In this document: piece by piece, positions 4,190 to 38,653 of the stretch
Numbering within the stretch: position 1 is the first letter of the stretch
How the letters are laid out: every line of letters starts with the position of its first letter
From: Cycas panzhihuaensis
Taxonomy: Eukaryota; Plantae; Cycadophyta
Length of the DNA: 64,000 nt
Direction of reading: 5' to 3'
Assembly: GCA_023213395.1 (NCBI GenBank)
Contig: CM041465.1
Location: 180,551,741 to 180,615,740, forward strand
Made by a program: the position numbers and the translations under genes
Notes under the pieces: model-generated
The model's database searches: none
What the model saw: the letters and a program-made list of their open reading frames with translations, nothing else
What the model was told of the DNA's origin: nothing

Positions 4190-4600
4190 TGACACTCCAA
4201 GATGAAATCGACTAGGCTATCGACTTTGGTATTAAGTTCACATGGAGTATAACAAACATCTATGAAAGCAAACATAGCCAACAAAGCCCCAATTGTTATA
4301 GCTAAGAACCTCAAATGTGGGGAATGGATATGATAAACTTATGTAAGATAAGATATGATTATCTTAGAGTCACAACATAAGGTAGTGGGGCCATGATTGA
4401 AGCAGAGCACATCCGCCAATGCCTCTATGATGGTGATGCATTTTGTCTCATTATTAGTGGCATTAGATAACAAGATTCTAGATTGCATAAGGGTATGGCC
4501 ATGGTGGTCCCAAATAACCCAAGTAGTAGCAAATGACCCAAGGTTCCCGTGGCTACCCCCATTAGTATGGATAGTCAATGACTCGCTATCCAAGCTATGA
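4190..4600 (-). pseudogene. Archaeal-type RNase HI (aRH) of E1, degenerate
   Basis: ORF 4339-4593: LTIHTNGGSHGNLG...ATNNETK...LCCDSKII matches the RNase HI motifs DG.SRGNPG / TNN.AEY / DS.LV. Confidence 0.82.
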
Positions 4601-7600
4601 GTATGGGCAGATAAGAGGACATCATGAAAAGAAAGCTATCATAGGGTAATGGTAGCTCCAATTTATAATTGAAATCACAAGTAGAAGGGATGTGGTCAGA
4701 ATCATATCATAAGATAGTAGGACATGAGGGATCTGACATGTACCAGACCTCATCATGAGGTGATTGCATTTGGATTAAGTAGGCCTCAATAGTCGATGAA
4801 GGACTAGACCACATGGTGGTGGTATGTACATGAGCAATCCGCTAATGGGTACGCCTCCATGTGGTAGCTTGGGTTGAATGCAAAGGTAGGTGCAAGCCTA
4901 AACCTGGTGACCTAGAAGAATGGTCAAGGGTCCTTGGAGGAGGACTAAAAGGACAGGAAGGATCCTCATGGAAGGCATCCATGGGTGTATGGGAAATAAG
5001 AGTGACATGTTGTATTAAGGGTTTATGGCCCTCAATATCTAACTTAGGGTCACTCATAACAACCAATTAGCCATAGCTACCTATGCTAATAGGGGAAAAT
5101 CTAATTAGATTAAGTTCAAAATGAGACTGGGGCTCATCCTAGCAAGAGTTAGATGACTTAAAGAGGTTTCCTAAAGAGGGAAGAGGCTCATCATAATTGC
5201 TATCTCTAGAATTAAAGATAGTTTGACAAGTGGGAGGAGAAACATGAGAGGGAGGAAGCTCACGAGTGATAACCTTAACTTATCTTTAATGGACAAATTT
5301 AAGTTGGCCCCATTGCAAGGATCAGATAACTTTCATTTGATCAAGCCATAGTTGACCTCACAAGAGGTTGTAATTAACATCAATGTTGAGAATAACTATG
5401 TTTACTAGCATAGTCTTCTCCTCAAAAATGAGTTAGAGGGTCACTATCCCCAAGGGGGACTTCTCACTCCTATCATACCCCTGGCATTTCTAGGGGATAT
5501 ACTTAAGAGCCTCTATGCCTAGCTTTTCTATCATTTGCATAGTCATAGTATTGACTAAGGAACTATTATCTATAACAATCCTCTTCAAGGTAAAATTAGG
5601 AGTATCGATGATGATAGTGAATAGGTATTGCCAATAGTATTCCTATTTACTAGGAAATGGAAGGTCTTGAGGTTAAATTAGATGGTATGAGGTCCATGAG
5701 AGTTAGTGTCTATAGTCTAGATGGGGGTGTCTAATTGACTAAGAGCCTTTAAAATAAGAGTGTGTTGCTCATGGTAACTCCACAAGATGTCCATCATGGA
5801 CATTCCCATAAAATTTGAGTGCAACTCTTCAATAATGGAGAAGGTCTTCCCCTTCCCTATAGGTTGGAGAAGTGCCCTCCTGAAATCATATCACCTAGGG
5901 CATATGGGAATGGTCTTTATGACCACAGGAATCTCTATTGGGAGAGAATTTATAGGGATTTATTGAGAAGAGGAGGCTTTATTAGCCTCTCTAGTAGCTT
6001 GAGACCTCGTGACTGGGTATATGGGGGTAGTCTCTAGCAACTAAATGATCTTTGTCTCCTAGTTATTAGAATGAGAAGAGGAAGTATGGTGAGATATAAG
6101 ATTAGAAGGAGGAGAGGAATTGGTATGGATCTTGACCTTCTCTTGACCTAAGGAAAGGAAGGGATTTCATCTCCTATTCCTCGGTCTCCTATTTTGAAGA
6201 GAGTAATTCCATTCCTCATGGTTAGTAAATAAATCACGATAAACAAGTTACTCTAAATTTGGCTTGGAAGCACCCTGTGAAGGAGGCTCACAGGATGAGG
6301 TAAGTTTAAGGTGTTACTTCCAACACTACAAATCATTATGGAAACACTCACTATGAATGGAATACTACTTCCTTTTAGGAGGGGATCATGTCCCCTTCCT
6401 TTGAGAGGTAGTGTTGGCATTTGTCAATGAGGTGGTCTTGGAAGTTTGATGGACATAACATTCAAATTTATGAGAGGTTTGAGTTGGTTACAATTTAATA
6501 TGTTTAACCATTTGCTCAAAGGAGTGAATAATAGATGTAAGGGGATCTAGGGTTTTGTCAGTTGTGTTAATGGGAAGATTAGAAGCTAGCTATTACTTCT
6601 TTTGGTCACATGAGGGAGGGGGTGTCTCTCAATATTGTGATTACCTTAGAAGCTTTTTGAGACTAGCTTGGATCTTAATACCTTCCAATGCTAAGCATTT
6701 AGCTATAGTGGAATCATAAGAAGTCACTCATATATTTAGGACCTTAGCATATACCTATGGGCACAACACATTAATAAAAAGATCTTGCTTTAATTATTTG
6801 GGTAGTGTTTCCTTCAAAGAATAAAGGAGATCATGGAACTATTGCATAAAGTCATATTTTAGTTCCTCAAGCCTTGTTTAAGTGAGAGTAGGGCTTTGAC
6901 CCCACTCTCAAAAGACTGGGTAATATAAAAAAAAGTTGATAAATTCATCAAAAAATTACTAAAAGGTTGATATGGAGTGAGCAGAGAGATGATATAACCA
7001 TTTAAGGGCATCTCCCTAAAGGGATCTAGGGAAACGTTTCATTAGAATATGGTCATAGGCCTAATAGTTTATGCATGCCATGGCAATTGCCTTAACATGC
7101 TTAGTTAGGTCATGGGAGGAGGTGCCATTGAACTTGGGTACCTCAAGATGATAAGGTAGTGAGTTAGTTATTAGCACCTTAATGGACAATGAGGTTGACC
7201 AATAATTAATGAAGGGATAGGTCCTTAGTTAGATTAGTGGGTTAACTTGGGAATAAGGGGATGTAGTATAAGGTTGCCCATTCCTAACATTTGGTGAGTA
7301 AGGGGTGGCATCGTAAGGATGATGCCCTTGTTGACAAGGGGCATAAGAGGTAGGAGGGTAGGCTATCCCTCCTGATGGACAAGAGTATGCAACCCCCAAA
7401 TAGGTAATCGTTAGATAAGGAGATGGGTAAGAGCATGTCACTACACCTTAGGGATGAGTTATGTAAGAATGTAAGGGTTGAGGATATGCTCCTGTAGGAG
7501 CAGATAGGTAGACATGCAAAGATGAACCTATATAAGGCATAGAGCAAGGTTGACAAAATGTAGGATGGGGAATGGGGTTTTGCCTATATGGAACCCTAAT

Positions 7601-8300
7601 GAGAGAGGAAACCCAATAGGGATGAAGGGGATCAACCCCATATGTATGAAGGGGATTTGATCCCCCATGCCCCCAGGGTTGAGATGTGTACCCTAGAGGA
7701 ATGTAGATTGAAGGGTCCACAGTTTGTGGCCATAAATAGATGGAAGTCATACCCCCATGTCCTGTATGGTATATGGGAAAGGGCATGATTGAAGGAAAAG
7801 AAAGGGTTGATGTGGTAATAGGTTAGAATATGTTAGTTAGAAGTGAAGGCATATTTACCCCTACTCGAGGAGTTTGTATACTTGAAGTGGTTTATTGGCC
7901 AGGAGAGCCACATATGGAAACATGCCCCACTAAAACTACTTCCTAGAGGGTAGAGGAAGCGAAAGGAAGGGATGAAGGAGGGGGAATGATGGAATATAGG
8001 TGAGCCAAAGTTTGAAGGAATCTTTACAACCACTTAGGGAGTGGTTGCATAGTTACAACTTTGAAGCATCCCCATAGGGCTTCAACCACATCCCTATGAG
8101 AAGCATATTATTGTTTTTAAGAGGTGGAAACTTCCCCTTGATGACTAGAATGAGATGGATAGGTTGTAGAGATACGTTTAGGGCATGAAGCAAGGTCCCT
8201 AGGTTGATAACTTCTTATGACATATTAGGGAGTGGTTGAGGGTCTTGGCAACCTTCAACCATCTTAGTATGATAATATGTAGGATCCCCACCAACTTGGG
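4600..8300 (-). pseudogene. gag-protease polyprotein of E1 with Pro-rich N-terminus, many stops
   Basis: Retrotransposon gag core ~6650-7150. The retropepsin (IVIDNSSLVN...CQGYDRSEKSPLG...NYNLL) is near-identical in pattern to E2 28000-28350. Confidence 0.75.
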
Positions 8301-8638
8301 TGAGATTATACTAAGAGGAAAGAGCCTTAGGATGAGGCTAATATGAAGTGTAAGGGTCATTGGCCTAATCATAAGGATAACCCTCCATTGATGATTCTTT
8401 AGTTAAATGAGGGGATATGGGAATAAATAGGCTCTACTTCAATGGGAGGTAAACCACGTGAGTGGTGTGAGAAATGTTGCATTTGTGAGTGAACCATTTC
8501 ACTTAAGGAAGACAAGAGAAGAAGAAGGAAAACAAGTAACAAATAAGATGTCTAAAGGAAACATAGGCTAATAGGCCCTATGGAAGGGGGAAAAGTACAC
8601 AAGCAAGCTAAAGGTGTCTTAAAGCATTCTAACTGGCA

Positions 8639-8656
8639 TCCCTAGTATGGTCACTA
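8639..8656 (-). other. Primer-binding site of E1 (Arg-tRNA-like, Tat/Ogre type)
   Basis: tagtgaccatactaggga follows the LTR end ...gtaatctca after a 1-nt spacer. It is a decayed TGGCGAC...CTGGGGA type and matches the E2 PBS. Confidence 0.7.
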
Positions 8657-8657
8657 G

Positions 8658-11136
8658 TGAGATTACTCTTATTAGGGGTACCTAAGATAACAAACACTGT
8701 GGAGAGCTAGGCTTAGGTTGTGGGACCTAGTATGGGGTGTAAAGTAGTCTTAAGTGGCCCTCATAGGGCACTCATACACCCAAGGGTGTGGATTTAGGAA
8801 TGCATGGGTGTGATCCCTTTCCTTTCCTTAAGGGTTTGGAGAAATATGCCATGATTAGGAAAATTACCTTAGCAAGGGGCCAACATGGTGAATAAAGGGG
8901 AGAGAGAGAGAGAGAGAGGGTTAAGGGATAAATAGGCATAAGCCCACTTAATAGAGCATGAGGGGTATGGTTGGATTTTTTTTGTTAAGTTGTTTGGAAC
9001 AAGAACAAAAAGAAAACAAAAGAGAGGTACCTAACGAGTAAGGAAACCTCGCTCTCTTTTCCTTTAACACTCTCTTCTTTCTTTTCTAAAAAGAAATATG
9101 CATGCTAATTGGAGGAAAGGAAAATAGATATGACCAATTGGGGAGCAAAGAGGGGAGAAGGTAAAGAATCTTTCCCTATATGAAGCCCTAGCCCAAAACA
9201 CCCTTACTTTTAATATTCCTTTTTGCTAAAATAAAAGGGAAATCAAACCTATTTCCTTTCTTGTAAATTAATTTCCCTTTATTTTCACTATGTAAGAAAC
9301 CCTCCCCTACTTCCTTATTTTTCTTTTTTAGTGATAATGCAACTAATAAGGAACAAATAATAAAGGATGGGAAACTATTACAATGGGGAGTAGAGTAAGA
9401 ATAATAATAAGAATATGAAATTACAAAAGAAAAGGGGAAACTGGTACACCTAGATTTAGTTGATGGTTGGTGACCCTGCTCCTCCTCACCTCTCTTTGTC
9501 CTCCTTTCTGATGCTTATGTTATCAGTTGAAGAAAAATCAAGGGGTTTCCACTTACCCACCCCAAATGGAAAGATAACAAATTGAAGGCAATAAAAGGAA
9601 TAAGTAAAAGAATAATGCAACAACAAGCATAAGAAGTGTGGGCCACTCACCTTATTGAGGTGCACCTTCTTCAAATCCTAATATTAATGGTGGAGGGTTG
9701 CTCATTTCTATGCCTATAAATTAGGTCTAGAGAAAGGGCTACTACCCTAATAATCTTTCAAAAAATTCTAATTGTGTGAAAAAGCTAACCAATATATAGA
9801 CATGAAGCACGCATATATGTATATGCAATAAATAGTAGAATGGCAATAGAAATAAATATGAAGCAAAGAGGTGAGAGGTGCCTCAGAATGGTGTGCCCCC
9901 CTCTACAAAGGTGATTTCCTTAATTGTACTAAGGAGAGCCACTATAACATGAACCTATAACTCAATAAAAGGTGTATGCAAAAGGGGAAGGAGAGATCAA
10001 GAAAATCCAACCCTATCTTCTACTATTACAATGGAAGGAAAAGCTACCAAATCCAAACAACCCTAGCTATACAACATAATAACAACAAAGTAAGGAGGGA
10101 AAGAGTGAGAGGGAGTCTCACAAAATGGTAAACCAAGGTAGGGTGGGGAATGCCCAATCTAATGGAGAGGTAAGAAGTAATGGCCTCCTAATATAAAGCT
10201 CTCCAATGCTCCTTTTCATGCACTAGGGTTGATCTCCAACTTCTTCACCTTAGCTCCAAAAGCATGCAAGTCATATTAAGAGTAGAAGGGTTGTTATGGT
10301 AAAATTTTAGAAGCATTTTGGTATTGTAAGAAGAATGGAAGATGTATCCTATCCTACCTTCAAATTGGAGGGGTTTTATAGGAAAAAATAAGGTGTGGGG
10401 GTGGTGGTTTCATGCACATAAGTTGGAGAAACCACCACCTAAAACTTGGATGGAGCTAAGGAGGATGATTCAATTCTTAATAAAAATTGAATTAAAAAAT
10501 GACATTAGAGGTCCAATGAGGTTCCTTAGGGTATGTTGAGCTAACTTGGGCTGATGTGGCACCTCAAGCCTACTAAACAAGGCAACAAAAAGATCCATTT
10601 AGCCATTGGGGATATGATTGGAGGCTGCAACAGTCATACTATAGACAAATCTATGGTACTATGAATTTCTCTATGGTACCACTTTCTGCCCCAAAAAGGG
10701 TAATGGTATAGTAATATAATATTAAAAGGGAGCCCAAACTCTATATTAAGGCCACTCTAACTCCCAAAAACTAGTCCCAAGACCTAAAATAAGGGGTGAC
10801 TAGTAGCTATGGAGGAGAAATGAGACCAAATGAATAAAAATAGGCCTGAAAAGAGAGTTTCAAGGATGTAGAGAGGTTCCCTTTCCAACTGATAGGCCAA
10901 CATTAGGGCGGGGTAGGGAGGGGCTTTAAGGCCATTATAATAGAGTCCTAGTCATCATTGGCATGAAAGAAGGCATAGGCAAGCTAAGCAAGTCAAGCAA
11001 GTATACACTTAACAATCAATCATACAATACAGAAAACAAAATAACATAATAAATGAGATAGGAAATAAATATGGAGATACGTACCTATACTTACCTATGT
11101 CATCGTGTTGATGCCATTCTTAGAAGTTAGGAAATA
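8658..11136 (-). repeat. 5' LTR of E1 (~2.5 kb)
   Basis: Minus-strand start tatttcctaacttctaagaatggc...taggtaagtataggtac aligns to the E2 LTR start tgttttacagctaccaagaatggg...caggtaagcgtaggtac. It ends in CA before the PBS. Confidence 0.72.
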
Positions 11137-20240: not shown

Positions 20241-21842
20241 TGACACCATTGTTATTAAGGTACAAACTTTAGATGCATAACTTAGTACTGAAGGAATCTC
20301 TAAAGAAATGTTAGTGATATTAAAAGTAGATAAAGAAAGTAAAGGACCTCCTCACTAAGTTCCATTTAAATATTAACCAAAGTTACATTCATATTTGAAA
20401 TAGTAAGCTTTAATGAACCATTATTGTTGGCAATAATAAAAAAAGAAAAAAATAATTTAGGGAAAACTAGGAGTTAACAGATATTTAATAGGATGCACAT
20501 AAAAAAATATCAGTAAATGTTATAAATAACTAAGAATATGGTCTTAAATTATAAAAGATTGCACAAAAGAAAAGTAATCAAATACCTATAATAATAGGAC
20601 ATTAGCTCATAAATACATAGATAAAAGAATAAAATGACGATGGAAACAAACCCATCATTAAAAATTAGATAGCTCGTAAAATAGCCACTACATCTCCTAT
20701 ATCCACTAAGCATCCATATTAGAGATAATTTAGAAATAGGTATCAATCTAATCAAACAATTTCATGCACAAATATGGACCATAATTGGAAAGTCAAAAAA
20801 AAAAAAAAACCTCACATGTAGATAAAGATAATAATTAAAGAATTTGAAAGTAATTTATCCCCATTTCTAGTCTTACTTTCCACATCATTTTTAAGGTTGC
20901 TACTAAAGATGCCAATAGTAAATAGGAACCTCATGAAAGAATATCTTGCCAAATCCTTCCATCATAAAATAAACAACCTGGTGAAGAATTAATTCCTAAC
21001 ACTAACAAAAATAAGTATGGTATGTTGATCAATGATAGAAAATCAAGATTAACAACTAATGACGATAAACTTGAAGAATCAACCAAAGATAGTAATATAA
21101 ACATGAAGTCAAATGAAAAAGATCTTATAATAATATCAATTTAGTATCATCCAATTACTATCACTTGTCCTAGAACTATCATTAGTACTCTTTTTTTTCC
21201 CTATAAAAGTTGAAGAAATTATGTTCAATATCTCTACAACTCAAATTCAAAATATGATAGAAAATTGACAAAAAATTTAGAATTTCATGATACCTAATTA
21301 TAATTTTGAGTGAAAGATTTCTTGAGATGTCTTGCTAGAAGTTCACCTAATGGACGAATATACTATGCCATTATGACAAAGTCAAAAATCATATCAAACC
21401 CAAAGGCAATGGTCTATAATGCCATGGTTCAATAAAAGATTAACTATAATCTAGGATAAGAATCTTTTGGATCACATATTCAATATTTGTTTTACAACTT
21501 AAATCAAACATGAATTTCATAAATTTATATAATATTATACTTCTCAAATGAAGTCTATTCCATTTCAGTAGCCTTTAAGGATGAACCCTTCCAAGAGGGG
21601 AGAGCTTATGGTGAGCCTAAGTAATATATAATTAGACACTAATGAATAATAATAAAAGGTGCCATCTATTAATGATTAATATAAATATAAACCCATTGTA
21701 ACATTTACTTATTTATTTATTTATTTTGATATGGTAAAATAATGAAGGGGTTTAAAAAGGGCCCCAATCCTATTACAAATCTATCTTCTGGTAATCAAAT
21801 TTACCATGAAAAAAGCCTATGGCCTAACTATCCTCTTCCCTC

Positions 21843-24800
21843 TATTTTTCGGCTATTGGGAATGGGCATGGACATGTTGACTCAGGTAAGTGCAAGTACG
21901 CTTCGATCCCTTGTCTGGGTCACTTCTTAAGAAAGGTAAGTTGAAGCATCTATGTTATGTTGCATGACTGATAGATTCATTTGAGTGATCATCTTGCATC
22001 TGCTACTTAATCATACCATATGTCATCGTTCTAGCCTATGACGATCCAGGGATATTAATCCTAATGGAACTCCACAACCCTCCTTTATGTCTCCACAATG
22101 TCCCAAGTACCTTTGGGCCTCCGTAGCCTAGCCTCATCACCTGTTGGTGTATTACAACCCCTGACACCTCGTGCAGGCTTGGTTGGCACCTTCCAACTAT
22201 TTATCGACTTTTCTTAGAATATTTAGCCTTCAATACCTATTTGTTTAAGGTTTTCCTTAGCCCCATAGCCCTTTCCTTCCATTTAGACAAATAGCCATGC
22301 CTCTTAGGCCAATGTGCCCTCTCTTTTGGGCTCCTAACCCTCTCTTTTTTTTTACTTTTGTCTATTTTATGTTGCACCGTGATAATGATTGTGGTATCAC
22401 TGCAAACTTTATGGTACTGCAAAGTTTATTGTAGTGTGACTATCACAAATCAATTTTTAAAATTTACCATGGTAAATTCCATATTTATTATGAAATTACC
22501 ATGTGGATTAGGTGTATTCCTGGCCCCAACCAAACCCTAATCACTCGATTAGGGCTAGGGTTAGGTATAAAAACCAAAAACAACATCATTTCCTCCTCTT
22601 CTAACTCTCTTTCACTCAACTCTCCTAGCACTTCTTCAGAAAAATGCCCTGCAACAAGGATAAAGCCTGCTACATCAGTGTTCTAGCCTGGCATTAGTCT
22701 CTTGCAACTCCAGATACACTGTTGCAGGCCTACAACATGGCCAACAAAGAGAAGGATGTGCTCCAAGTACTTCACCAAGTCCAGATCCACTTTCTTCACT
22801 CCAACTTCCTTCCAACTTGTTGCTTTTCGTGGTTTCTCTTATAAACCCTGTAGGGTGGGTCTCTTTCCTCTATTTTTTTGGTAGATCTGCTATTGATCTA
22901 CCCATACTAGGTACTCCTGAGCCAATATTTTATCTTTCTTTTGCTTTAAGCAATACAAACATCATTTGTTAGCACTCTTACATTATTTTTTCCTTCAGTT
23001 TTCACCATAAGCAGGAGGCAAACGTTCCCCACCTTACTCATCTTTCTCTTTCCCTCTCGATTCTTCTCTGGTTGCTGTAAGGGGGTAGTGAAGAAGAGAT
23101 TTTCTATGAAGAGTGAAATGAGTAAAGGCAGGGTTTTACACCCAATAGGGCTTTTCCTCAAGGGCATCCCCCTTCTCTCCTCATCTGTTCTTGCTCCATG
23201 CCTTCCTTGAGCTCCCAAAAGGCCATTGGAAAGAAGACCATTGCTAGTAGTAGCGTAGGCAACCATTTGTTATTCTCACAACCAACTTTGTAGGTCCTAC
23301 ATGAGGGAATTCTAGCCCTCCATCCCATAGTTTCTTATACCTTTGGCCTAACCATACCAAGGTTGTAATAGTTATAGATTACAACTTTTGCAACATTGAT
23401 AGCATTGGTAATATTTTCCCTTGCTTTCTCACTTGCATCTCAAGGGTTTATTGTCCTCACTTTGTCTCATCTTTCTTGGTACTTGGATAATATGGAGCAC
23501 ACCTGATTAGGAGGGTTAGCCATTCTGAGGCTATCCATCCTCTTTCTCTCTTTGCCCCCCTTTTTCCCATGATTGTTTACTAAAGGGTGTAAAAGGAACA
23601 AGGAGTAATGTTGTAGTAAATAACATTTCTTTTGGCTGAGAATTATGAATTTTATTATTTGTTATATTGTGTATCTATCCTACATGTACTTAGTACCCCT
23701 TGGGAAAGGGTGAACTTGGTTTGATTTACAGGTCACCTTGTTGTGCATAGAGAATGAAGGGAAATCTACTAGGTACATCTCCGTCCCTCTAACCAGTACT
23801 TCTTTTGCTCTCCAAATTATAAGTTAAAGTTGTAATAGTTTTTGCATTTTCTTTCACTTCTTTCCTTACCATTTCCTTTCCTTTTGACTTGGGGAAGGTA
23901 AGGGAGCCCCTCCTTTCTTTGCTGGCACCATCTTGTGCTGTCTATGGTTAGAGAAGGTCAAGGGTAACAAGTATAACAAGGACAATGCCACTTCAGCTGT
24001 TATATTCTAGGTATGCCTTGAGCTTTCCTTGTTTCCTTTTTCTCTCTCTCTTCTCCCCCCTTCATCCATACATTATTCGAAAAAAGGAAAAGACAAAGAA
24101 CTAGTTTTGGTCATCCACTATCAACTAGTTTGCTTGCTTTTGTAGGAAAGTGCATGTAGTAAGAATCTCTCATATTCACATGCTTATCTTATTGCATTGC
24201 TTAGCAAGTTTACATCTTTTGCATTCATTTACATCATGTAGTTGTCATTTATACCCTTCCTTTCTTTTCCTGCTTTTGCATTCAAAAGGCAAAGAGAGAG
24301 AGGATATCTATGTGAGTAAATGAGAGTGAGATTTACATTATTTTATTACCTTGAAAAGTTACTCTTGCTTTATATATGAGATCACACCATTGCATACACC
24401 ACACCAGTTAGCAACCAACCAACGTAAACATTAAGATGCCTCTTATTTGATCTCTATTCCTAAGATCTTCTTAGGTTTAACATTTTGGGGATACTCCCTT
24501 CTTTTAGAGTTGCTCTCTTAGTTGCCTCCACTCGGTTTGATCAAACCATTTAGGCATCGTGATTTTAGGTTGGTACCCAACCTATGAGGTTAGTCCCTTT
24601 CCTAATCTACTACGTGTGTGTGCTACCCACCTTCTCTACTAGAGTCATCCCCTTTGCACTCCCTCTTTATGTGAGGAGCCATTTCCTCACTCACCCTTGC
24701 CTCCCTCCTTTGGCCATCCAAAGGCGAGAGGACCTACCTTTTGAGGTTACTCAGGAAAACAAGGATATCCCTCATACTTTCCACCCTTCAAACCAAAGCT

Positions 24801-24977
24801 GAGTTATCTAGAAGGGGGTTGAGCATCATTTGTGGGTCTCGAACCTAAGTTCTGATACACAGATGCCTTTTATGGGTGATCTCTTTCACTTGCTAAATTG
24901 ATCCTAGATTCTAAAACCCTTCATTGATTGATCTAATCTTAACCAAGTATGATTACCATCCTATAGGTGCGATTCCA
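21843..24977 (+). repeat. 5' LTR of E2
   Basis: Aligns end to end with 33831-36966 (about 11% mismatches in one ~195-nt sample). Starts TA (from TG) and ends gattcca. Confidence 0.93.
22532..22572 (+). promoter_or_regulatory. Putative LTR promoter: telo-box, hairpin and TATA box
   Basis: aaaccctaa (22532-22540), inverted repeat ccctaatc-actc-gattaggg, then tataaaa at 22566-22572. The TATA is retained in the 3' LTR (~34553). Confidence 0.5.
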
Positions 24978-24999
24978 TTGGTAACCATACTAGGGACCC

Positions 25000-27900
25000 G
25001 CTAGTAAAGGATCAACCCTTTCTTGTTGGTGCTACCCTTTCTTGGTAGCTCTCTTTGGTTTGTTGGGTAGCCCCCAACACCTCGACTACTTTATTCCTTG
25101 CTCCTTCTTCTGACTGACATGCAGGTCTTACATGTGATAATTCTCACGTTGCCTATGAGGCTTACCCTCGTTGTTAGAAGATCCCTCAGACCACTCCCTT
25201 CCTTCGTCAGATTCTTATTTAACTATGGAAGGATTTCCCTTAGATTGGACATATCATGCCTACGTATCCAAGTCACATGAGCCTTTAACTTTGTTTCAAG
25301 GTTCTACCCAAGAGGGTAAGGACCCTATCTTTTATCTGGGTAACCAACAACACCCATATGTCCATCACCTATATTCTCATGAAGTAGGGGTCTCATTCCC
25401 TCTCAAGTTCTACCATCAGGGTGGTGACTCCTATAAGGATTGTTCCGTGGGGTCATCTTTATTTAAGGTTCTATCTACCTCTTATGATCAGGCAAATACC
25501 CCTCCTGTCGATGTAGTTGAAGCCCTTAACCAATGCTTCCAAGTTGCTCATCTTTAACCATACCCTAAATAGTTCAAGAGAATCTTGCGAAGCGTTGCAC
25601 CTCCTTTGTCTACATCTTCCATACCTTGCCTATCTCATTCAACTCCTCTACCTATGACAAGTTTGCCTTTTGTCTCATCCATTCCTTTGCATCCATCCTT
25701 TTCAACTCTGCTGTCCACCATAGGGATGTCCATTACATCATCCTTCTTCTTTTGTGGTCCAAGCTCTTCAGGGATCACTCAAGGCATATATTTTTCCCAC
25801 CTTGGGATGAGTATGCCTCACCCAAGTCAAACCACAATACCCTGACCTACTATTAGACATCCACCTCTAGTTAGACTTAGGAGACCCATGTACGTCCCTA
25901 CTTCTAGCCATATGGGGCCTGCCCCCATACATTCTCAAGTCTAGTCTACTAGATCTTCACTTTATATACCTCTAGGCTATATCTCTTAACTGAGGGAGAA
26001 TGACAATGGAAACTCCCTTCCTGCTTATAGGGTAGACCTTTTACACCCATATGGGATCAAACCACCCACGGGTGGCCCATATAGGCAAAACCTAGTTTTG
26101 CACCCCTCTTTTCCATCATCCTATGTCACATCTCATGGTGTGTCATTGTAAGGAAGGAAAGCCCCCTCTTAAGGCACCTTCTCTCAAGTTACTTTCTAAT
26201 ATGTGGTGTTTCCTCAAGGGGGGATAGGTCCTCCACCCCCATCTGCTCCTATGTATATTCCTTTGAAAGCGGGACTAGTGTCTTCTCACCAAACGGGAGG
26301 AGGCCAACATCCCCTTTCAAACCAAAATCCTCAAGGAGGGTTTAGGTAACCTTGGCCACCTCTTCCTCTATCTCTCATCAATCATATGGTCTAGTCAAGG
26401 GCATGCCCTTTTATGGATTATAGATCAACACCCCTATCTATCAATATGCTAAGAACCAACTTACCGCCTCACCCTCTTGAGGTTCCTAAATTTGATAGAA
26501 CCTCATCACAAGACCCAACAGAGCATGTCCATAGCTTTTCTATGGCATGTATCGATTACTAGGTCTATGACCATATCCTTATAAAACTTTTCCCACAATC
26601 CCTCCAAGGCAATACCCTTAAGTGGTTTTATCACCTACCAACACATTCATTTTTTCATTCCAACAACTTGTGGATAAATTCATCAACTATTTTAGCGTAG
26701 CTCGTCTATTTGAGAGTGGAATGAAAGCTCTCTTGTCTCTCAAACAAGGCTACGATGAGATGAATCATGACTTTATGAGATGATTCCATGACCTTCTTCA
26801 CTCTACAAAGGCAACTTTGCCTAAGGAGTTGAAGAGGGACCTCTTTATTAATGCCTTGCGTCCCAAAGTCCATGTCGAAGTCCCTAAATGGAGGTGACAA
26901 TGTGTGATTCTGCCATAGCTAAGTGCTTGGTGCTTGAGGCAATTGAGATACAAGCCAGACTCAAGAAGCCTCTCAAGCCCTCACAACGACGTGAGATGCC
27001 TCTACCACCTTGAGAGACTAAAGTCCAATAGCCTACCAGGTGTTCTTCTCATCTGATGAAAAAGACCTTGGATCCTCTCACTTCTGCTATATGTTCATTT
27101 GAATGTACCATGAAGGAGCTTAAACTCCAAGCCCGTTCATCCCCTACCTCACATAAACTAGTTCACCAGGCTTCTCAAGCCTCTCCCCCCAAGGGTGGTA
27201 GCACCTATTCTTCTCAAGCGAGGAAGCCCAATTCCTCTCAGGAGAAGAAATTATGCTCCATCCATAGGAAATGTTTCCATGAACATTCACAATAACGGGC
27301 TCAACAGCCTAAGGCTACCCCACAATGTGATTCTTCCCCTAAATAGGCATTGAGGCCCAACTTAGACCAGCTAGTCCATAAGGATCCTTTCTCCAATCAT
27401 GGGGAGCATGATCGCAACACCAACTAAAAGGTAACCTAAACAGGGGAAGATCCCCAAACCCTTGCCCTTCATAAGATAAAGGGAAGGGTGCAAAGAACTC
27501 ATCCTCTTCCTCTAGTTCTCCTAAACATCACACTCCCTCACCTTTTTGATCCCAGAATAAGGGAAAGAAGGTCATCTAGATGCTTGAGACCACACTATTG
27601 TACACCGTAACCCAAACTCAAGAAGCCAAAGAGGCAAACAACACCTCTTCTTCAATACCTCACCCTGATCCTCTTTTGGAAATCCCTCTTTCGAAAGTCT
27701 CTACACTCCCTAAGACCATTTCTATGTGCCCTGGTCACTATGACTTTCGAAAAGTTCTTCCCCAACTGGTCGCGAAGGGGAAGCCCTTCTATATTGTCGA
27801 TGAGCTCCACACCGTGGCCATAGGGATATCCATAATGGATGTCTTGAGGAGTTGTCCCAAATAACATACTCTTCTTCTCGAAGATCTTGGCCAACAAGAT

Positions 27901-28900
27901 GCTTCCATCCATGCTATAGGCACCATCTCCCATGGATCGCCTATCATCTTATTCGATCCTCGAGATCTCCCACCTCCTAGTAAATGGGAGAAGCTTTTAC
28001 ATTACCCATTCATCATTACTATTGATACCCTTGATTTCATCATAAAGAGGACTATCGTAGATCAAATCTCCTCAGTAAATGCTATGCCTGCGTGCATGCT
28101 CAAGGAGCTAGGCATAGTGGATCTTGAGTCTATCCCTTGGAAATGCCAAGGGTATGACGAGACTGAGAAGTCCCCCTTAGGGATAGTCTCTCTTTTCCTC
28201 ACCTTAGGAGGGAAGACCATTTCTGTTGATGTTGTTGTACTCGATATCGATGTGGAGTACAACCTCCTATTAGGCCGACCATAGCTCGATCAGATCGGAG
28301 AAATCTACTCCTCACATTATGGATAGCTTAAATTTATCCATGAAGGATGAGTTAAAGTTGTCACTTGTGAGCTTATGCCATCTTACACTTCTTATCCAGC
28401 CTGCCAAGTTGTCTTCGATGATGAAGATAGAGATCCTGAGGAGGCTATCCCTTCCATAGGGACCCTTTTTTAGGAGACTGATCTTCATCAAACAGAACCT
28501 ATGCCTTGTCATGAGCCAAACCTAGTCAGGTTTACCCCTATTGGCATGGGTAATTACGATTAAGTAGTCATCATGGGTGATTCTGAGTTGGATAGTGAGG
28601 GCCATGAGCCCCCTCCTCGGCAAGTCACCTTGGATTTGCACATACCTAAGGAGAGATCCTGATCAGATATTCCCTCTTCTCCCTATTCTACATTAGCTCC
28701 TGAGTCGCTAGTTCTAAACCAACTATTTCTTTGATCTTCTCACCCTTCCTAAGTGGCTTCATGTAGGCATCCACATCGATGAACCACTCGTAGGGGTACT
28801 TCTTCTTCATGATCTAGGTCCTTAACCTTGCCATATGATCTATCGCGTGTTAGGTCCATCGCACTCATATGGTTCTGACCAAAACCATTTTACTCATAGG
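25000..28900 (+). pseudogene. gag-protease polyprotein of E2, many stops and frameshifts
   Basis: Gag core EVPKFDRTSSQDPTEHV...FPQSLQGNTLKWFY ~26480-26630. Retropepsin IVDQISSVNAMP...DIDVEYNLLLGRP ~28000-28300. Confidence 0.82.
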
Positions 28901-29699
28901 CCTAGTTGTATAGGGCTTACCCTTCATCATCCATCTCCATGCCTCATGTGACCTATCCCTACCTCTATGTAGGCTTGTCACACCACTTCTCTCTCTCTCT
29001 CTCTCTCTCTATTTTTTCTCTAAAATGAGCCTAAACTACCACCCTAAGCATGTCCCCATTCCCCTTAACTACAGGTGGAATGGTAATTTAGGGTGGCCTG
29101 GGTTCCTCTTATGGAACCTCTCGTCCTCTCTCCTATGGGGGCCTTGTCCTCCTAATTTGGTGTTCGGTCCCTATTGCTCCTAAGCCTAGGGGCACTCCCC
29201 AACTAGGATGGTGTGCTCGAGTATCATTACTCCCTTTCTCACTAATGCTTCTTTTGCATATCTCACTATGCTCCTATGTGGACATGTATGGTCCCCTATC
29301 TTTTATCCCTACATATGCCTATCACTGATGCTCATGGTGATCGTGCGTGCTTGCTAAGAGTGTGGCCCTACATGAAAGGAAGTACATGCAATACAAACAA
29401 TCCTATAATACTAACCAAACCATGTAATAATCAACTCAAACCATCATGATCTATAGCTCTTTGTACATTTGTATACTCATATATGTACATATCCATAAAA
29501 CATATAGCAAATACATCATCATACACCATCATAACATCATCATCATACACCAAATGGAGTATCAATCACCCCGTATATACATAAAAATCATAATGTGTCA
29601 TATCATACAAATGGTATGGTACATCATCTACGAGAAGCCAAAATCCTTGCAGGGAGGAGTATAATCATGTGGTAACATATGGTGACTCCCTAGAGGTCT

Positions 29700-31680
29700 A
29701 GTGCTTTTCCCAAATCAAAACCTAATAGACCCTACTCCATGGTGATCCTCTACTTATGGCATGTCATCTCCTGGTTGATGTGATCCCTCCCTAGTGGACC
29801 ACATCCCTCCTAAGCTCCTGTTACACCTTTGGGAGTTCCCTGCCTCACTCCCTTCATCTCGAGGCCTCCTTGGCATCACTGCCATCGTGTGAGTATGAGT
29901 CATACTCCATGATGACCTTGACACCATCTGATCTACCAGCTAATCGTATCACGCCTGGATATGATACCTCTCACCCTCTACTCCTTAGAGCCTCTCCTCC
30001 ATCCCTTGGAGCTGCTCCTCTAGTACTGCTACATGGATATGACTCTCCACGTCACTCTCAACTCCTCCCTGACTCTCTAGTGCCTAAACCCAACCTCGTA
30101 GGATATCTCTCTCTACTCTGGTCCCATCCAACTCCCCCTGTAGTTGTCCCACTCTTGCCTTATACTCCTAGGACTCTACTACCCACACGTCTCTAGCCCT
30201 AACCAATGGGGCAAATGCTACTATATGAGCCCTTGCTAACTATGGCTCCTCTCCCATCTAGATGAGGGGATGCCCCTCTGTGTAGGCCTAAGGGAATATC
30301 TCTTAGACTACCACCTCCACCAACCTCCCCATCTCTACTACTCCTGCAAAGTCAAATGCACTACATGTTCGTATATATATATCCGTATATGTATACCAAA
30401 TAAACTAAATCAAAACAAAGCATCTAGATACCTGGTGATTAGAAGACGATAGGAAAAGGTAATGTCTCATCTCTTAGGACTGCAGGCTCCTTGACTTAGA
30501 TGATCACCTCCTCCTTAGGACCTCCCCCAGCTACTGGTACCTCCTCCTCCTCTGGTACCAACTTACCAATAACCTGACCTATCGAAGCATCACCTCCACC
30601 CTCCTCATCTATCACTACCGCTACTACTTGAGATCTCCCAACTATCTGTAATCTCTTAACTAGTGTGTAAGGTGGCCTGCCTCTCCCTATAGCTCTTGAA
30701 GGAGCTACCTCTCCTTTTGCAGTCCCCGAGGGCCCTGCCTCACCATGTGCTACTCCTTATGGGCCAACCTCATCACCTCCATCATCATCATCATCAGGAC
30801 CACCTCCTACTCGTCTTGATCTACCTGCCTCATCATCACTGTCCCACCTCACCCCTTTATATGGGTCTGCCATATAGTCTACCATGGTGAGGAGGTCCAA
30901 TGATGTCACCTCCACCAAGCATCAGACGTGTGCCTAGTCCTTGGTCCCCCTGAAACAAGTCTTCCACCTATGGACCATGGTAGCCCACACTAATATAGGG
31001 TGTGGCCCTCCTGGTGGTGCCACTACCCCAAAGTGGTAAAAAAACTAGCACTGTAGTAGCGTGCTATATGAGAAACCTCCCCTCCCTGTCACCCTGATGG
31101 CATCTAGCTAGGCAATCATGTTCGTCGCTACCAGAGTGGCCCAATCCAACCTCTCTCTGCCCTTGCATCTCCTTACCACCTCCATCCAGTTGCTAGGAAT
31201 GTCTCTATAGTTCTGTTTCTAGGAGATCTAAAATAAAATGCCTAGTGTGACCAATTTCCTCATCTAAGGAACCTGTGATATAACCATAATCTGAGCAAGT
31301 ATCCCTCTCCTCTACCACCTATCTTGGCCTATGAACAAAGTAGTTGCCTCCCTATGTGCAGTGTCATTGCTAGGTAGTGCCCCTAGCGATGCCAGTGTTC
31401 CTGTTGCTGGTACTCCCAAGATCATTTAGATGTCTTCTAGTGTGATGGTGACATCTCCTACTTGGGTGAGATGGAATACATACTGTCGACAATCCCAATA
31501 GGTGATAATATCAACTAAGAGACACTGGTTTGAAGTGTACTGTGGCATCCTGATTATCTTCAACAAGCCACATCTCCCTAGTGTCTGCATATCCTCCTGA
31601 GACATCATCTCCATAAAACTCATCATTGCAACATTGATATTCTCATGGTTGTCCACTATGATAACCACTTGTCAAACACC
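29700..31680 (-). pseudogene. Antisense plant mobile domain (PMD, aminotransferase-like) plus coiled-coil gene of E2, with an intron at 30344-30431
   Basis: LLVDIITYWDCRQYVFHLTQVGDVTITLEDI*MILGVP matches the PMD signature (W...THTFH..GE.TITLEDV..LLGLP). GT-AG U-rich intron, then a Glu/Arg-rich heptad exon. Confidence 0.78.
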
Positions 31681-32949
31681 TAAGAATGAGTCAAAACACT
31701 AATATGTCTATATACCTACCCTTAAGATTGTCCCTCACCCCTCATTGGCTAAGTTCAACACTCCTTTGGGCTATCCTTTACTTTTTTCTATATGTAGGTC
31801 TCTGCCCCGTGCTAAACTCCATAATACTGCAGAGTTTAGTATATGGCCCCACTGAGTTTTCAACGCGACTCAATGGCCTTGTGGTAAATTCTGCAGCACC
31901 ACAATCTTTGCCATGGGACCTTCCATATCCCCACAAAAAGGGGGGGGGTTTGCCCTAGAAAAACCTAAAGTTTTTCCTAGTGGGCCCTACTTAGGCCCAA
32001 CAGGACTAGATCTACCTAATGCCCTGGTCCTCTTTCTCTTTTAGCCTAAGTTGGACCTCGATAGATCCCAGTTTGCCCTTTAGGGGCTAAAAATTACCTA
32101 ATAAAAATGTAAAACTACATTAATTTTAAATGACAAAATGGAAAGGTTAAGGGATGATCCACTCACTGGATCTGGCTTGGCCACTAACATCTCATCTCTT
32201 GGGTCCTAACAACTATCTCTTTGCCTCAATCTGATGCTCTAATCTCCCTTTACATGCCTCCAAAGTTAGGCGATGCTCCACTGCATAAAGAAAAGGGCTC
32301 TAGATTGATCGTGAGCTCATGAAAATGAATCCTATTTTCATTGTGTTTTCCTTATATAGGTGCCCCCATCCCCCTCCCCCCACCCCTCCCTGATGGCTAC
32401 CTTCTCCTTTTTTCCTCCCGCGATAGCCCTCAGGACCATCTCTTTCTCTCCTCATTGCTTTTGCCTTCTAGGCTTATTAGCCATTTTGCCTCGATGGCGC
32501 CTTTCTCTCTATATCTTTTTGGGTGTATTTATGACATCTCCTTCAGTCTCGTAAAGGCCCCTTCTACATCAGTTTTTGCACCATCTCTGAGTGTGCCCAT
32601 GTTTATACCTTTTTGGCTCATTTAGTCATCCTAAAACCATTTTCACCACCCTTTTGGACCTTTGGGGCTCCCAAAGGAAGTGCCCTCCCATCCAAGACTG
32701 CACCTTGCTTCCTTTAGCAATCTTTGGGACCCTAGAGGGGCCGTTCCACCACCGATTCTTTCCCATCTGCCAAGTTGGCCTCCTCATCCTCAGGTAGCCT
32801 CATCCTTAGGTTCTACTACCCTTCATGGCCCTATTATTAGCCACTTGATTCCTGCATGACTGTTTCACCACATTGGATTCCTTTTGCTCATTAATCCCAC
32901 TAGCACTTTTTTCCTTCACTCTCCTTACCAAGATCTCTATCCTCTTTAC

Positions 32950-33350
32950 CATGTCATTACTCGTCTTTACTGATAGTGGAAGTCGCAATAACCCTGGCCC
33001 CTCCATTGCTGCATGGATCCTCTATGACCCATCCAAACATAACTTTATGCATTCTGGAGTCTTCCTTCCTGAGGCCACTAATAATAAGGCTGAGTACACA
33101 TCTGTTATTGGGGGCCTCACTGACGTGCTTCATTTCTACCATGGGCCTATTGTCCTTTTTTGTGACTCTTAGGTTGTGGTGTATCATCTCACCTAGGTCT
33201 ACCAGGTGCATTGCCCATGCCTAAGGGCCCTCGTCTTAATTGGTAGATCTCTTTTGGCAGACTTCTCTTCTATCGATATTCAAACACATCCCTCAGGATC
33301 TCAATGCTGAGGTAGATAACATCATCCATCTCATCCTTGAGCATTGCCTT
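32950..33350 (+). pseudogene. Archaeal-type RNase HI (aRH) of E2
   Basis: LLVFTDSGSRNNPGPSIAAW...EATNNKAEYTSVIGGL...LFCDS*VV...HIPQDLNAEVD. Confidence 0.88.
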
Positions 33351-33830
33351 CCTCTCCTTAGTGACTCCATTTAAGAGACTTTCTAGTCACCAAGGCACCC
33401 AAGTCTTGAGTCAACCCCCTTCCCTCATGTCGTGATACATTTGCACCTCTAAAAGACAACTACTAATGAGAATAAACTATGGCGACTACCATGTTTGTTT
33501 CTACCCTTAGCACCACTTTTAGCACGTAATCCCCACCATCCTTTGACTTACTCATGGACATCACCACCCTTTTTCTTGTACTCCTATGATAGGGGCATCC
33601 CCCTCATCCGTTATCATTGCCAATCTGATATAGGACTACCCATAGGTAGCCCCTATATTACCTCTCTCCCATCTCCATGCCCATGTGTTCTGCCATGACA
33701 CTCACCATCACCCTTGGATTAAATAATTATCATGTTTATTTGTATGTACATATATTGCTAATGTTTTGTTGTTAGCATTAGCCATCACGTTATGCTTCTG
33801 AGCAGTGAGGCTCTGCTGCCAAGAGGGTAG

Positions 33831-36800
33831 TGTTTTACAGCTACCAAGAATGGGTATGGACATGTCAAATCAGGTAAGCGTAGGTACACTTCTATCCCTT
33901 GTCTTAGTCACTTTTTAAGAAAGGTAAGTTGAAGCATCTATGTTCCACTGCATGATTGATAGATTCATTTGAGTGATCATCTTGCATCTGTTGCTTAATT
34001 ATACCATATGTCATTGTTCTAGCCTATGACGATCCAGGGATATTAATCCCAATGGTACTCCACAACCCTCCTTTATCTCCACAATGTCCTAAGTACCTTT
34101 GGGCCTCTGTAGTATAGCCTCATCACCCGCTGGTGTATTACAACCCCTGGCACCTTGCGCATGCTTGGTTGGTACCTTCCAACTATTTATCAACTTTTCT
34201 TGGAATATTTAGCCTTCAATACCTATTTGTTGAAGGCTTTCCTTAGCCCCATATCCCTTTCTTGACATTTAGATAGACTGCCATGCCTCTTAGGCCCAAT
34301 TTGCCCTCTCTTTTAAGCTCCTAGCCCTCTTTCTTTTTTTATTTTTGACTATTTTATGTCACACTATGCTAAAGATTGTAGCACCACTGTAAACTTCATG
34401 GTACCATAGAGTTTACTATGGTGTGACCATCACAAATCATTTTTTAAAATCTACCATGGTAAATTCTACATTTATTACGAAATTGCCACATAGCTTAGGC
34501 TTATTCCTGGCCCCAGTCAAACCTTAATCACTTGATTATGGCTAGGGTTGGGTATAAAAACCAAAAACAACATCATTTCCTCCTCTTCTAACTCTCTTTC
34601 ACTCAACTCTCCTAGCACTTCTCCAGAAAAATTCCCTACAACAAGGATAGAGCCTGCAACATCAACGTTCTAGCCTGCCATCAGTCTCTTGCAGCTCTAG
34701 ATATGTTGTTACAGGCCTGTAGTATGGCTAGCAAAGAGAAGGATGCACTCTAATTGCTTCACCAAGTCCAGATCCACTTTCTTCACTCCAACTTCCTGCC
34801 ATCTTGTTGCTCTTCATGGTTTCTCTTACAAACCTTATAGGGTGGGTCTCTTCCATCTATTTTACTAGTAGATCTACCTTTGATCTACCCATACCAGATA
34901 CTCCTGAGCCAATATTTTATCTTTCTTTTGGTTTAAGCAATACAAACATCATTTGTTAGCACTCTTACATTATTTTTTCTTTTAGTTTTCACCATAAGAA
35001 GGAGGCAAACCCTTCGCACCTTGCTCATCTCTCTCTTTTCCTCTAGGTTCTTCCTTAGTTGCTGCAAGGGGGTAGCAAAGAAGAGATTTTCTATAGAGAG
35101 TGAAAGGAGTAAAGGTATAGTTCTGCACCCAACATGCCTTTTCCTTAAGGGCATCCCCCTTCTCTCCTCACCTCTTCTTCCTCTATGCCTTCCTGGAGCT
35201 CCCAATAGGCCGTTGGAAAGAAGACCATTGCTGACAGCATCATAGGTAGCCATTTGTTGTGCTCACAACCAACTTTGTAGGTTCTACATGAGGGAATTCC
35301 ATCCCTCCATCCCATAGTTTCTTGTGCCTTTGGCCTAACCATATGAAGGTTACAATAGTTGCAGATTACAACTTTTGCAACATTGGCAGCATTGGTAATA
35401 TTTTCCCTTACTTTCTCACTTGCATCTCAAGGGTTTATTGCCCTCAACTTGTCTCATCTTCCCTAGTACTTGGACAATGTGGAGCACACTCGATCAGGAG
35501 GGTTAGCCATTCCAAGGCTATCCATCCCCCTTCTCCCTTTGCCCCCTTTTTTCCCATGATTGCTTACTAAAGGGTGTAAAAGGAACAAGGAGTAATGTTA
35601 TAGTAAATAACATTTCTTTTGGTTGAGAATTGTGAATTTTATTATTTGTTATATTGTGTATCTATCCCATGTGTACTTGGTATCCCTTGGGAAATGGTGA
35701 ACTTGGTTTGATTTGCAGGTCACCTTATTATATGTAGAGAGTGAAGGAAAATCCACTAGGTACATTTTTGTCCCTATAATTGGTACTTCTTTTGCTCTCC
35801 AAATTGTAAGTTAAAGTTGTATTAGTTTTTTGCATTTTCTTGCACTACTTTCCTTGCCATTTCCTTTCCTTTTGGCTTGGGGAAGTTAAGGGAACCCCTC
35901 CTTTCTTCACTGGCACCATCCTGCACCGTCTATGATTGGAGAAGGATGATGGTGACAAGTACAACAAGGACAACGTTGCTTTAACTATCATATTCTAGGT
36001 ATGCCTTGAGCTTTCCTTTTTCCCCTTTTCTCTCTCTCTTCTCCCCCCTTCACCCATACATTATTCGGAAAAAGGAAAAGACAAAGAACTAGTTTTGTTC
36101 ATCTACTATCAACTAGTTTGCTTACTTTCGTAGGAAAATGCATGTAGTAAGAATCTCACATATTCGCATGCTTATCTCATTGCATTTCTTAGTAAGTTTA
36201 CATCTTTTTTGTTCGTTTACATCATGTAGCTGTTATTTGTACTCTTCCTTTCTTTTTCTTGCTTTTGCATTCAAAAGGCAAAGAGAGAAAGGATATCTGT
36301 ATAAGTAAACGAGAGTGAGTTGTGTATTATTTTATTGCCTTGAAAAGTTACTCTTACTTTATATATGAGATCACACTATTGCATATACCACATCACTTAG
36401 CAACCAATCAACGTAAATGTTGAGATGCCCATTATTTGATCTCTATTCCCAAGATCTTCTTAGGTCTAGCATTTTGGGGATACCCCCTTCTTTTAGAGTT
36501 GCTCTCTTAGTTGCCTCCACTCAGATTGATCAAACCATTCAGGCATCGCGATTTTAGGTCAATACCCAACCTGTGAGGTTAGTCCCTTTCCTAATCCCCC
36601 ATGTACGTGTGCTACCTACCTTCTCTACTAGAGTCATTGCCTTTACACTCCCTGTTTATGTGAGGAGCCATTCCCTCACTCACCCTTGCCTCCCTCCTTC
36701 GACCATCCAAGGGGGAGAGGACCTAGGTCTTGAGGTTACTTGATAAACTAAGGATATCCCACATACTTTCCACCCTTCAGACCAAAGCTGAGTTACCTAA

Positions 36801-36966
36801 AAGGGGGTTGGGCACCATTCGTGGGTCTCAAACCTATGTTTTGACGCACAGACTCCCTTTGTGGGTGATCTCTTTCACTTGCTAGATTGATCCTAGATTC
36901 TAAAACCCTTTGTTGATTGATCTAATCTTAACCGACTGTGGTTACCATCCCATAGGCATGATTCCA
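33831..36966 (+). repeat. 3' LTR of E2
   Basis: TG...CA termini, follows the PPT and precedes TSD ccctc. Confidence 0.93.
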
Positions 36967-36971
36967 CCCTC

Positions 36972-38545: not shown

Positions 38546-38653
38546 GAATTTGTTAAGAATCTAATCCTTATCTCTCTTCTTCCCAAATCTTATATTTTTA
38601 TTCTTATAATTATCCCACATTCATAAGTCTAAGAGATGGGCAATCTTAATAGC

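What the first reader, a model, noticed from the sequence alone, without database searches (positions are those of the whole stretch)
21843..36966. RT/integrase-less Tat-like LTR element carrying Gag-PR, an antisense PMD gene and a free-standing RNase H
Seen: E2 is structurally complete (two 3.1-kb LTRs, PBS, PPT, perfect TSD). Its 8.85-kb interior is accounted for by gag-PR, a convergent antisense PMD gene and a separate aRH just before the 3' LTR. I find no YxDD-type RT or DDE integrase remnant, and no gap large enough to hold them. The diverged relative E1 also goes from gag-PR-aRH straight into the antisense ORF. Known: Tat/Ogre elements carry aRH and antisense extra ORFs, and gag-only non-autonomous elements exist. 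Inference: this is a propagated non-autonomous lineage that keeps its own particle, RNase H and a chromatin-related accessory gene while borrowing RT/INT in trans, possibly half of a two-component retroelement system.
Basis: partly seen in the sequence, partly recalled or inferred. Interest (0 to 1): 0.8.

Follow-up and report, generated by a model that had tools for sequence, protein, structure and literature searches.

The report
RT-less Tat retrotransposon keeping RNase H
An old, broken plant jumping gene lacks its copying and inserting enzymes yet carries capsid, protease, a backward-facing accessory gene and an extra RNase H; a distant relative nearby lacks the same enzymes, so it likely belongs to a family that spread by borrowing them, a new variant of a known lifestyle.

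Summary
Observation confirmed. E2 (21843-36966) has two 3.13-kb LTRs (87.7% identical, so old), a perfect 5-bp TSD, a PBS and a weak PPT. Inside are decayed gag and PR, a spliced antisense PMD/coiled-coil-like gene, and an archaeal-type aRH with its own ATG and all four catalytic acids. Tat-derived probes find no RT, RH or INT in E2 or in the visible part of E1, though they find the window's distant chromovirus enzymes.

E1 (~64% nt identity in gag-PR) shares the scaffold, but its aRH sits right after the PR linker; in E2 it sits behind the PMD promoter. Gaps of only 15-65 nt remain where RT/INT could have been. E1-E2 dN/dS is about 0.3 for PR, linker and aRH. Public contigs cover the whole interior with many diverged copies, but the decisive junction was masked, and no genome was held.

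Best reading: a propagated semi-autonomous TatIII-like lineage mobilised in trans (0.55 for one shared loss). Each part is known separately (solo aRH and antisense PMD in gymnosperm Tat; Gag-PR-only Sabrina). New here: aRH kept without RT, at two positions. An obligate two-component system is untested. The scan's earlier notes held no match.

The parts
21838..21842 (.). left target-site duplication (CCCTC)
21843..24977 (+). E2 5' LTR (3135 nt; starts TA, ends CA)
24979..24996 (+). PBS-like site, shared with E1; tRNA identity not tested
25471..27022 (+). decayed gag (Pro-rich N-part; capsid core 26350-27022)
   Evidence: Retrotrans_gag E 0.007; tblastx to E1; tblastn
27958..28368 (+). aspartic protease, decayed, catalytic Asp position kept
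28369..28967 (+). post-PR linker, homologous to E1 5261-4596; first half under purifying selection
   Evidence: dN/dS 0.30 on 28369-28653; distal part z 8.8
28968..29017 (.). 50-nt gap with CT repeat: candidate site of the RT-RH-INT loss; E1 has its aRH cassette here
   Evidence: masked
29018..29040 (+). 23-nt motif, 22/23 identical to E1 3994-3972; very deep contig cover
   Evidence: best of 200 shuffles 19/23
29701..30343 (-). second exon of the antisense gene, coiled-coil-like
   Evidence: E1 homology z 18; Striatin E 0.019, below cut-off
30344..30431 (-). predicted 88-nt GT-AG intron, phase-consistent between the PMD and second-exon frames; acceptor aligned in E1
30432..31678 (-). PMD exon (Pfam match 31566-30841) plus acidic Gly-rich tail, decayed
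   Evidence: PF10536 E 1.1e-8
32352..32358 (-). TATA-like box after a G-rich tract: likely antisense promoter, between PMD and aRH
   Evidence: contig depth 9-13k at 32342-32346 against a few hundred in flanking bins
32951..33371 (+). free-standing archaeal-type RNase H (aRH) with its own ATG; D, E, D, D positions kept; decayed by stops and a frameshift
33820..33830 (+). short polypurine tract
33831..36966 (+). E2 3' LTR (3136 nt; TG...CA)
36967..36971 (.). right target-site duplication (CCCTC)
8658..11136 (-). E1 5' LTR; both ends similar to the E2 LTR
4596..8656 (-). E1 PBS, gag, PR and linker, colinear with E2
4165..4581 (-). E1 aRH, 15 nt after the linker; 42% aa identity to E2 aRH
2770..3994 (.). 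E1 shared motif, then the 3' part of its antisense gene (second exon and intron, read on +); cut by a copia insertion at 2769

Best explanation
E2 is a complete, long-dead insertion of a Tat-type LTR retrotransposon that has no RT, RH or integrase, and it likely belongs to a semi-autonomous lineage that lost that block once, before E1 and E2 split, and then spread using an autonomous Tat partner. Shown: the anatomy, the absence of RT/RH/INT, the colinear scaffold with E1, multi-copy cover, and purifying selection on gag, PR, linker and aRH between E1 and E2. Inferred: its full-length RNA (LTR, PBS, PPT) was packaged in particles built partly from its own Gag-PR; the partner's RT and INT copied and inserted it; its aRH, made as a Gag-PR fusion (E1 type) or as a separate ORF (E2 type), supplied RNase H to the borrowed RT, whose native RH is degenerate in aRH-bearing Tat (PMC10508981). 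The aRH cassette changed position within this lineage. The PMD/coiled-coil gene is an inherited antisense unit with its own promoter; its intron survives because the genomic RNA is the opposite strand.
For: No RT/RH/INT with working positive controls. E1 and E2 stay homologous through the whole linker to E1 4596 / E2 28967 (score 118, best of 300 shuffles 82). They resume at a 22/23 motif, leaving 15 nt (E1 linker-aRH), about 65 nt (E1 aRH tail-motif) and 50 nt (E2). The E1 alignment has a 35-nt gap at E2 28824, the place where family contigs also carry about 32 more letters, which independently supports orthology. dN/dS is 0.34 for PR, 0.30 for the linker and 0.28 for aRH; gag pS 0.77 vs pN 0.24. 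aRH dS (1.6) is like the linker's (1.45), so both aRHs date from the E1-E2 split. 78,292-88,464 contigs were laid per run, mostly under 95% alike, covering all 30 bins. The 24 best loose ends shown read, by eye, as local indels or stretch ends that continue into E2-like sequence. One X5 contig joins 28937 to 29073 across the gap with 12 other letters, and one 89%-alike contig bridges into the aRH start.
Against: No full-length second copy was seen. The CT repeat at the candidate junction was masked and rows there were dropped (41 loose ends and 4 joints in X6). Only 24 of 1,485 and 24 of 19,233 loose ends were shown. Depth falls towards the gap (195-532 at 28932-28962) and upstream of aRH (about 280-540), which could mean many relatives differ there. 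The different aRH positions also fit two separate losses. One out-of-frame control for aRH gave dN/dS 0.42, so that estimate is soft, and the HSPs were chosen by protein similarity. The rest of E1 lies outside the window. No partner, expression or activity was shown.
Confidence: 0.55

Rival explanations
1. E1 and E2 come from two separate RT/INT losses in sister autonomous subfamilies: one with aRH next to the linker (structure #2, or INT-aRH of lineage III) and one with a solo 3' aRH (structure #3). Each derivative was amplified in trans, and aRH was kept only passively.
For: Both aRH positions exist in autonomous gymnosperm Tat (PMC10508981, PMC13468544). Purifying selection between E1 and E2 could have acted in autonomous ancestors (cannot separate this). 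Multi-copy cover fits as well.
Against: It needs two losses whose left ends fall within about 50 nt of the same linker end and whose right ends sit at the same motif or at aRH. E1 and E2 share LTR ends, PBS, linker and intron, which is closer than the deep Tat E versus H/I split would suggest (inference).
Confidence: 0.28
2. E1 and E2 are single-copy deletions after insertion; the family itself is autonomous.
For: The elements are old and decayed (LTR K 0.138). The junction could not be read. A microsatellite sits at the E2 junction.
Against: 2 of 2 Tat elements in the window lack exactly this block, with near-identical boundaries. One contig crosses the gap without RT, and no shown loose end leads into RT-like sequence.
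Confidence: 0.1
3. An obligate two-component system in which the partner encodes RT-RH-INT but lacks gag and/or aRH, so each half needs the other.
For: aRH-bearing Tat have a degenerate native RH (PMC10508981), so an aRH-less partner would need aRH in trans. The aRH here keeps its catalytic acids.
Against: No such partner was seen or could be searched. Known cases (Quinta/Cereba, Sabrina/Wilma) have fully autonomous partners (PMC11302176, PMC9744471).
Confidence: 0.07

Closest known systems
Gymnosperm Tat lineage III / REXdb TatIII / structure #3 'post-integrase' (Tat H, Tat I) (PMC4408406 section 6 read; PMC6317226 passages and supplements 4, 5; PMC10508981 whole text; PMC13468544 section 2.1 and passages)
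   Same: 5-bp TSD, 13-17 kb size, aRH near the 3' end, sometimes as a solo ORF, and an antisense 3' eORF with PMD. Structure #3 makes up 68% of Tat elements in Cycas panzhihuaensis.
   Different: Described members carry RT-RH-INT. Here that block is missing, and a sister element has aRH directly after the PR linker.
Wheat RLG_Sabrina_SA with partner RLG_Wilma (PMC9744471, passages)
   Same: High-copy family encoding Gag-protease but no RT or INT, proposed to be mobilised in trans and to contribute Gag.
   Different: No retained aRH or PMD gene is described in the passages read. The partner was identified there; none is identified here.
RLG_Quinta/RLG_Cereba (PMC11302176, passages); TR-GAG and TR-RH elements (PMC9784723, passages)
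   Same: RT/INT-less LTR elements that keep Gag, or a single domain including RH.
   Different: Quinta is centromeric, with Gag plus an unknown domain. TR-RH is one sunflower transcript with one ORF. Neither combines Gag-PR, PMD and aRH.
Ogre / Tat IV-V PMD-CC eORF (PMC4408406; PMC6317226 supplement 4)
   Same: Antisense 3' eORF with PMD followed by a coiled coil.
   Different: Angiosperm elements with aRH between RH and INT. The 2015 paper reports PMD alone in lineage III, whereas here a spliced coiled-coil-like exon follows.

Membership tests
LTR retrotransposon insertion | two LTRs, TSD, PBS, PPT | tested here: met
Tat clade (OTA) | archaeal-type aRH | tested here: met
   RVT_3 E 1e-7; PDB 3u3g, 4e19, 3hst
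Tat clade (OTA) | Tat/Ogre-type gag and PR | tested here: met
   named hits at 26-42% identity are plant retrotransposon proteins, many with G-patch or RVT_3
TatIII / structure #3 | placement in the RT-RH-INT phylogeny | not testable with these tools
   the domains are absent
TatIII / structure #3 | aRH downstream of INT, near the 3' end or as a solo ORF | tested here: inconclusive
   3' solo position met in E2, but there is no INT; E1 has aRH after the linker
TatIII / structure #3 | antisense 3' eORF with PMD | tested here: met
   PMC4408406
TatIII / structure #3 | 5-bp TSD and 12.7-17.3 kb length | tested here: met
   5 bp, 15.1 kb, though with RT-INT it would exceed the range
TatIII / structure #3 | PBS for tRNA-Arg (64%) or His | not tested
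   no tRNA set at hand; a paper search for the motif gave nothing relevant; resemblance to an Arg-type PBS after CpG decay is recalled only
autonomous Tat element | RT, RH and INT | tested here: not met
semi-autonomous family (Sabrina_SA/Quinta type) | many independent full-length copies without RT/INT | tested here: inconclusive
   2 of 2 in the window; piecewise multi-copy cover; junction masked
semi-autonomous family (Sabrina_SA/Quinta type) | autonomous partner sharing PBS, LTR ends and age profile | not testable with these tools
   no genome held

The most novel reading that the evidence does not exclude
An ancient gymnosperm Tat lineage gave up RT, RH and integrase but kept a catalytic aRH under selection, and moved it between a Gag-PR fusion and a solo 3' ORF. 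aRH would then be a trans-acting helper that a non-autonomous element donates to a partner's RT inside shared particles, and structures #2 and #3 would interconvert by a single cassette move within one family.
Probability: 0.3. Interest if true: 0.7.

Novelty: new variant of a known kind. Interest (0 to 1): 0.42.

Why it matters
Biryukov and Ustyantsev (PMC10508981) ask how an aRH placed outside pol can work and how the aRH positions of Tat arose. An element that keeps a selected aRH with no RT of its own would show that aRH can act in trans, apart from its RT. Two sister elements with aRH at different places are a close-range view of the shuffle that separates structures #2 and #3. Surveys that cluster elements by RT would under-report such a family (inference from that paper's methods), yet contig cover suggests it is abundant. 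If aRH is only a passive remnant, this is an ordinary Sabrina-like family.

Tried and rejected
No genome was held, so copies and partners could not be collected. Word-index protein searches with the decayed PR (longer proteins) and aRH found nothing. The HMMER search gave 1,056 hits at E<=0.001, of which 150 were listed; the closest were short unnamed fragments. The metagenome scan gave 1 locus from 85 pattern matches, L001, which shows no similarity to the window or to the fetched proteins and looks bacterial: false positive. Viral contigs gave 0 loci by protein and by motif. The zero-depth bin 28994-29024 is a masked repeat and no evidence. Summed contig depth is not copy number and was not used as one. 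Homology of E1's linker to the stretch upstream of E2's aRH was tested and rejected (z 1.5). Homology of the aRH tails is weak (z 2.7; 46 nt). dN/dS for the coiled-coil exon (0.65 on 55 codons) is uninformative. A feature search of the PMD protein in the ESM Atlas was not obtained, so remote look-alikes of the PMD product remain unexamined. Literature searches for a described RT-less, aRH-bearing Tat found none: 0 papers; 133, 20 listed; 2, unrelated by title; 0; 5, unrelated by title. The library lacks most subscription papers. REXdb's element table and domain file were too large to read and may list such elements. PMC7730604 (passages) was irrelevant. The scan's notes gave no match by relatives, words or sequence.

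Full report
Anatomy. E2 spans 21843-36966. Its LTRs (3135 and 3136 nt) are 87.7% identical, with 307 transitions and 78 transversions and K2P 0.138. At a recalled conifer rate of about 2.2e-9 per site per year this is roughly 30 million years, and methylation-driven transitions make that figure rough. A perfect CCCTC duplication flanks the element, a PBS-like site follows the 5' LTR, and a short purine tract precedes the 3' LTR. All coding parts are broken by stops or frameshifts, so this copy is dead. CpG is depleted (observed/expected 0.1-0.2). I did not establish the host; another agent's unchecked note calls this genome a gymnosperm, likely a cycad, which fits the Tat literature.

Coding content. 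Gag: Retrotrans_gag E 0.007 and tblastn hits. PR: no Pfam hit, but the HMMER and word-index searches return plant Tat/Ogre-type gag-protease proteins. Antisense gene: PMD E 1e-8. A GT-AG intron at 30431-30344 links the PMD frame in phase to a second, coiled-coil-like exon, and the acceptor aligns with an AG in E1. A TATA-like box at 32358-32352 on the minus strand lies in a spot of deep contig cover, so the gene likely has its own promoter, head to head with aRH. aRH starts at its own ATG (32951), keeps the four catalytic acids and is closest to archaeal-type RNase H1 structures.

Absence of RT, RH and INT. Pfam found nothing in 18 of 18 sense-frame pieces covering E2 28500-33850 and E1's gaps. 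The window's own chromovirus RT, RH and INT found nothing there. Of 225 fetched proteins, those with RT, RH or INT hit the two chromoviruses but not E1 or E2. An RT profile from 19 Tat-type sequences scored 136-142 bits on the chromoviruses and at most 0.6 in E1/E2. The INT test rests on two probes and is weaker, but no stretch is long enough: the largest without coding homology are 1.27 and 0.73 kb.

Comparison with E1. E1 (minus strand, 11136 to 2770, cut by a copia insertion) shares LTR ends and PBS, gag and PR (about 64% nt), the full post-PR linker (z 8.8), a 22/23 motif (best shuffle 19) and the antisense second exon (z 18). The one structural difference is the aRH cassette. In E1 it lies between linker and motif, 15 nt from the first and about 65 nt from the second. 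In E2 that interval is 50 nt with a CT repeat, and aRH lies 4 kb further on, behind the PMD promoter. Between E1 and E2, dN/dS is 0.34 (PR), 0.30 (linker) and 0.28 (aRH); gag is saturated at synonymous sites with pN 0.24. Out-of-frame controls gave 0.42-1.52, so the aRH figure is soft. aRH synonymous distance matches that of its neighbours, so the two aRHs look orthologous and the cassette moved within the lineage.

Copy evidence. No genome was held. Nineteen runs were listed, and 12 hold part of the stretch, none more than 23% of its words. Six runs were laid in all. At 80% likeness, 78,292-88,464 contigs per run covered 30 of 30 bins of the interior in 4 of 4 runs, most of them under 95% alike. 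On 28560-29460, 4,966-5,667 contigs per run covered 29 of 30 bins; the empty bin is a repeat the tool masks, which is exactly the candidate junction. Three to four in 100 contigs ran on into unlike sequence. The 24 loose ends shown of 1,485 read by eye as indels or stretch ends that continue into E2-like sequence. One contig joins 28937 to 29073, one 89%-alike contig bridges into the aRH start, and one 83%-alike contig covers the aRH tail to 33756. Against this, cover thins just left of the gap and upstream of aRH, and rows at the repeat were dropped, so RT-bearing relatives that part from E2 there are not excluded.

Mechanism. The best reading (0.55) is one ancestral loss of RT-RH-INT followed by spread in trans, with Gag-PR and aRH contributed to shared particles. 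Native RH is degenerate in all aRH-bearing Tat structures (PMC10508981), which gives a reason to keep aRH. Rivals: two separate losses from sister autonomous subfamilies with passive aRH (0.28), private deletions after insertion (0.10), and an obligate two-part system (0.07). Trans-mobilisation, expression and aRH activity are all inferred.

Comparison with known systems. Gymnosperm Tat lineage III has an antisense PMD eORF and an aRH after INT (PMC4408406, section 6 read; PMC6317226, passages and supplements 4 and 5). The solo-ORF structure #3 is 68% of Tat in Cycas panzhihuaensis (PMC10508981, whole text), and its fused-versus-separate status is called controversial (PMC13468544, section 2.1). 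Gag-protease elements without RT/INT are known from wheat Sabrina_SA (PMC9744471, passages), Gag-only ones from Quinta (PMC11302176, passages), and TR-GAG and TR-RH from sunflower (PMC9784723, passages). So E2 works like Sabrina_SA and is built like TatIII minus RT-RH-INT; formal TatIII membership cannot be tested without RT. Five searches found no description of an RT-less Tat keeping aRH; REXdb's large supplements could not be read.

Verdict. Real feature, new variant of a known kind, interest 0.42. What remains of interest is the retained, mobile aRH in an RT-less scaffold.

Noticed in passing
window 1-2769 (-): Decayed copia element inserted into E1's antisense gene (gag_pre-integrs E 2e-5, rve E 0.097); it runs off the window start.
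   Followed up: partly
window 17831-18193 (+): Isolated PPR-repeat fragment (PPR_2 E 3e-7) in AT-rich DNA, probably a pseudogene piece or an exon.
   Followed up: partly
window about 38500-44700 (+): Decayed chromovirus-type gypsy (RT 41697-42110, RH, INT) between 83-90% alike repeats at 38527-38941 and 44384-44678, with an AT microsatellite in the left copy.
   Followed up: partly
window 44993-46600 (-): LINE-like RT fragment (RVT_1 E 5e-14).
   Followed up: partly
window 48164-53787 (-): Younger gypsy element, 540-nt LTRs 95% identical, with gag, RT, RH, INT and an SH3-like C-terminal domain, a few stops.
   Followed up: partly
window 32890-32950 (+): Pyrimidine tract and an AG just upstream of the aRH ATG look like a splice acceptor, so aRH may be made from a spliced RNA (by eye).
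   Followed up: no
window 29025-29055: The motif shared by E1 and E2 has far deeper contig cover (34-51k) than its flanks; it may be a cis-signal shared with other Tat families and a handle for finding the partner.
   Followed up: partly
window 18486-18614 and 55495-55625; 18392-18523 and 21608-21717: Short dispersed repeats (83% and 70% alike) in the AT-rich flanks.
   Followed up: no
window 22946-23269 and 34933-35262 (-): A 107-109-codon stop-free antisense frame is open in both LTRs; this is within chance for 12% divergence.
   Followed up: no
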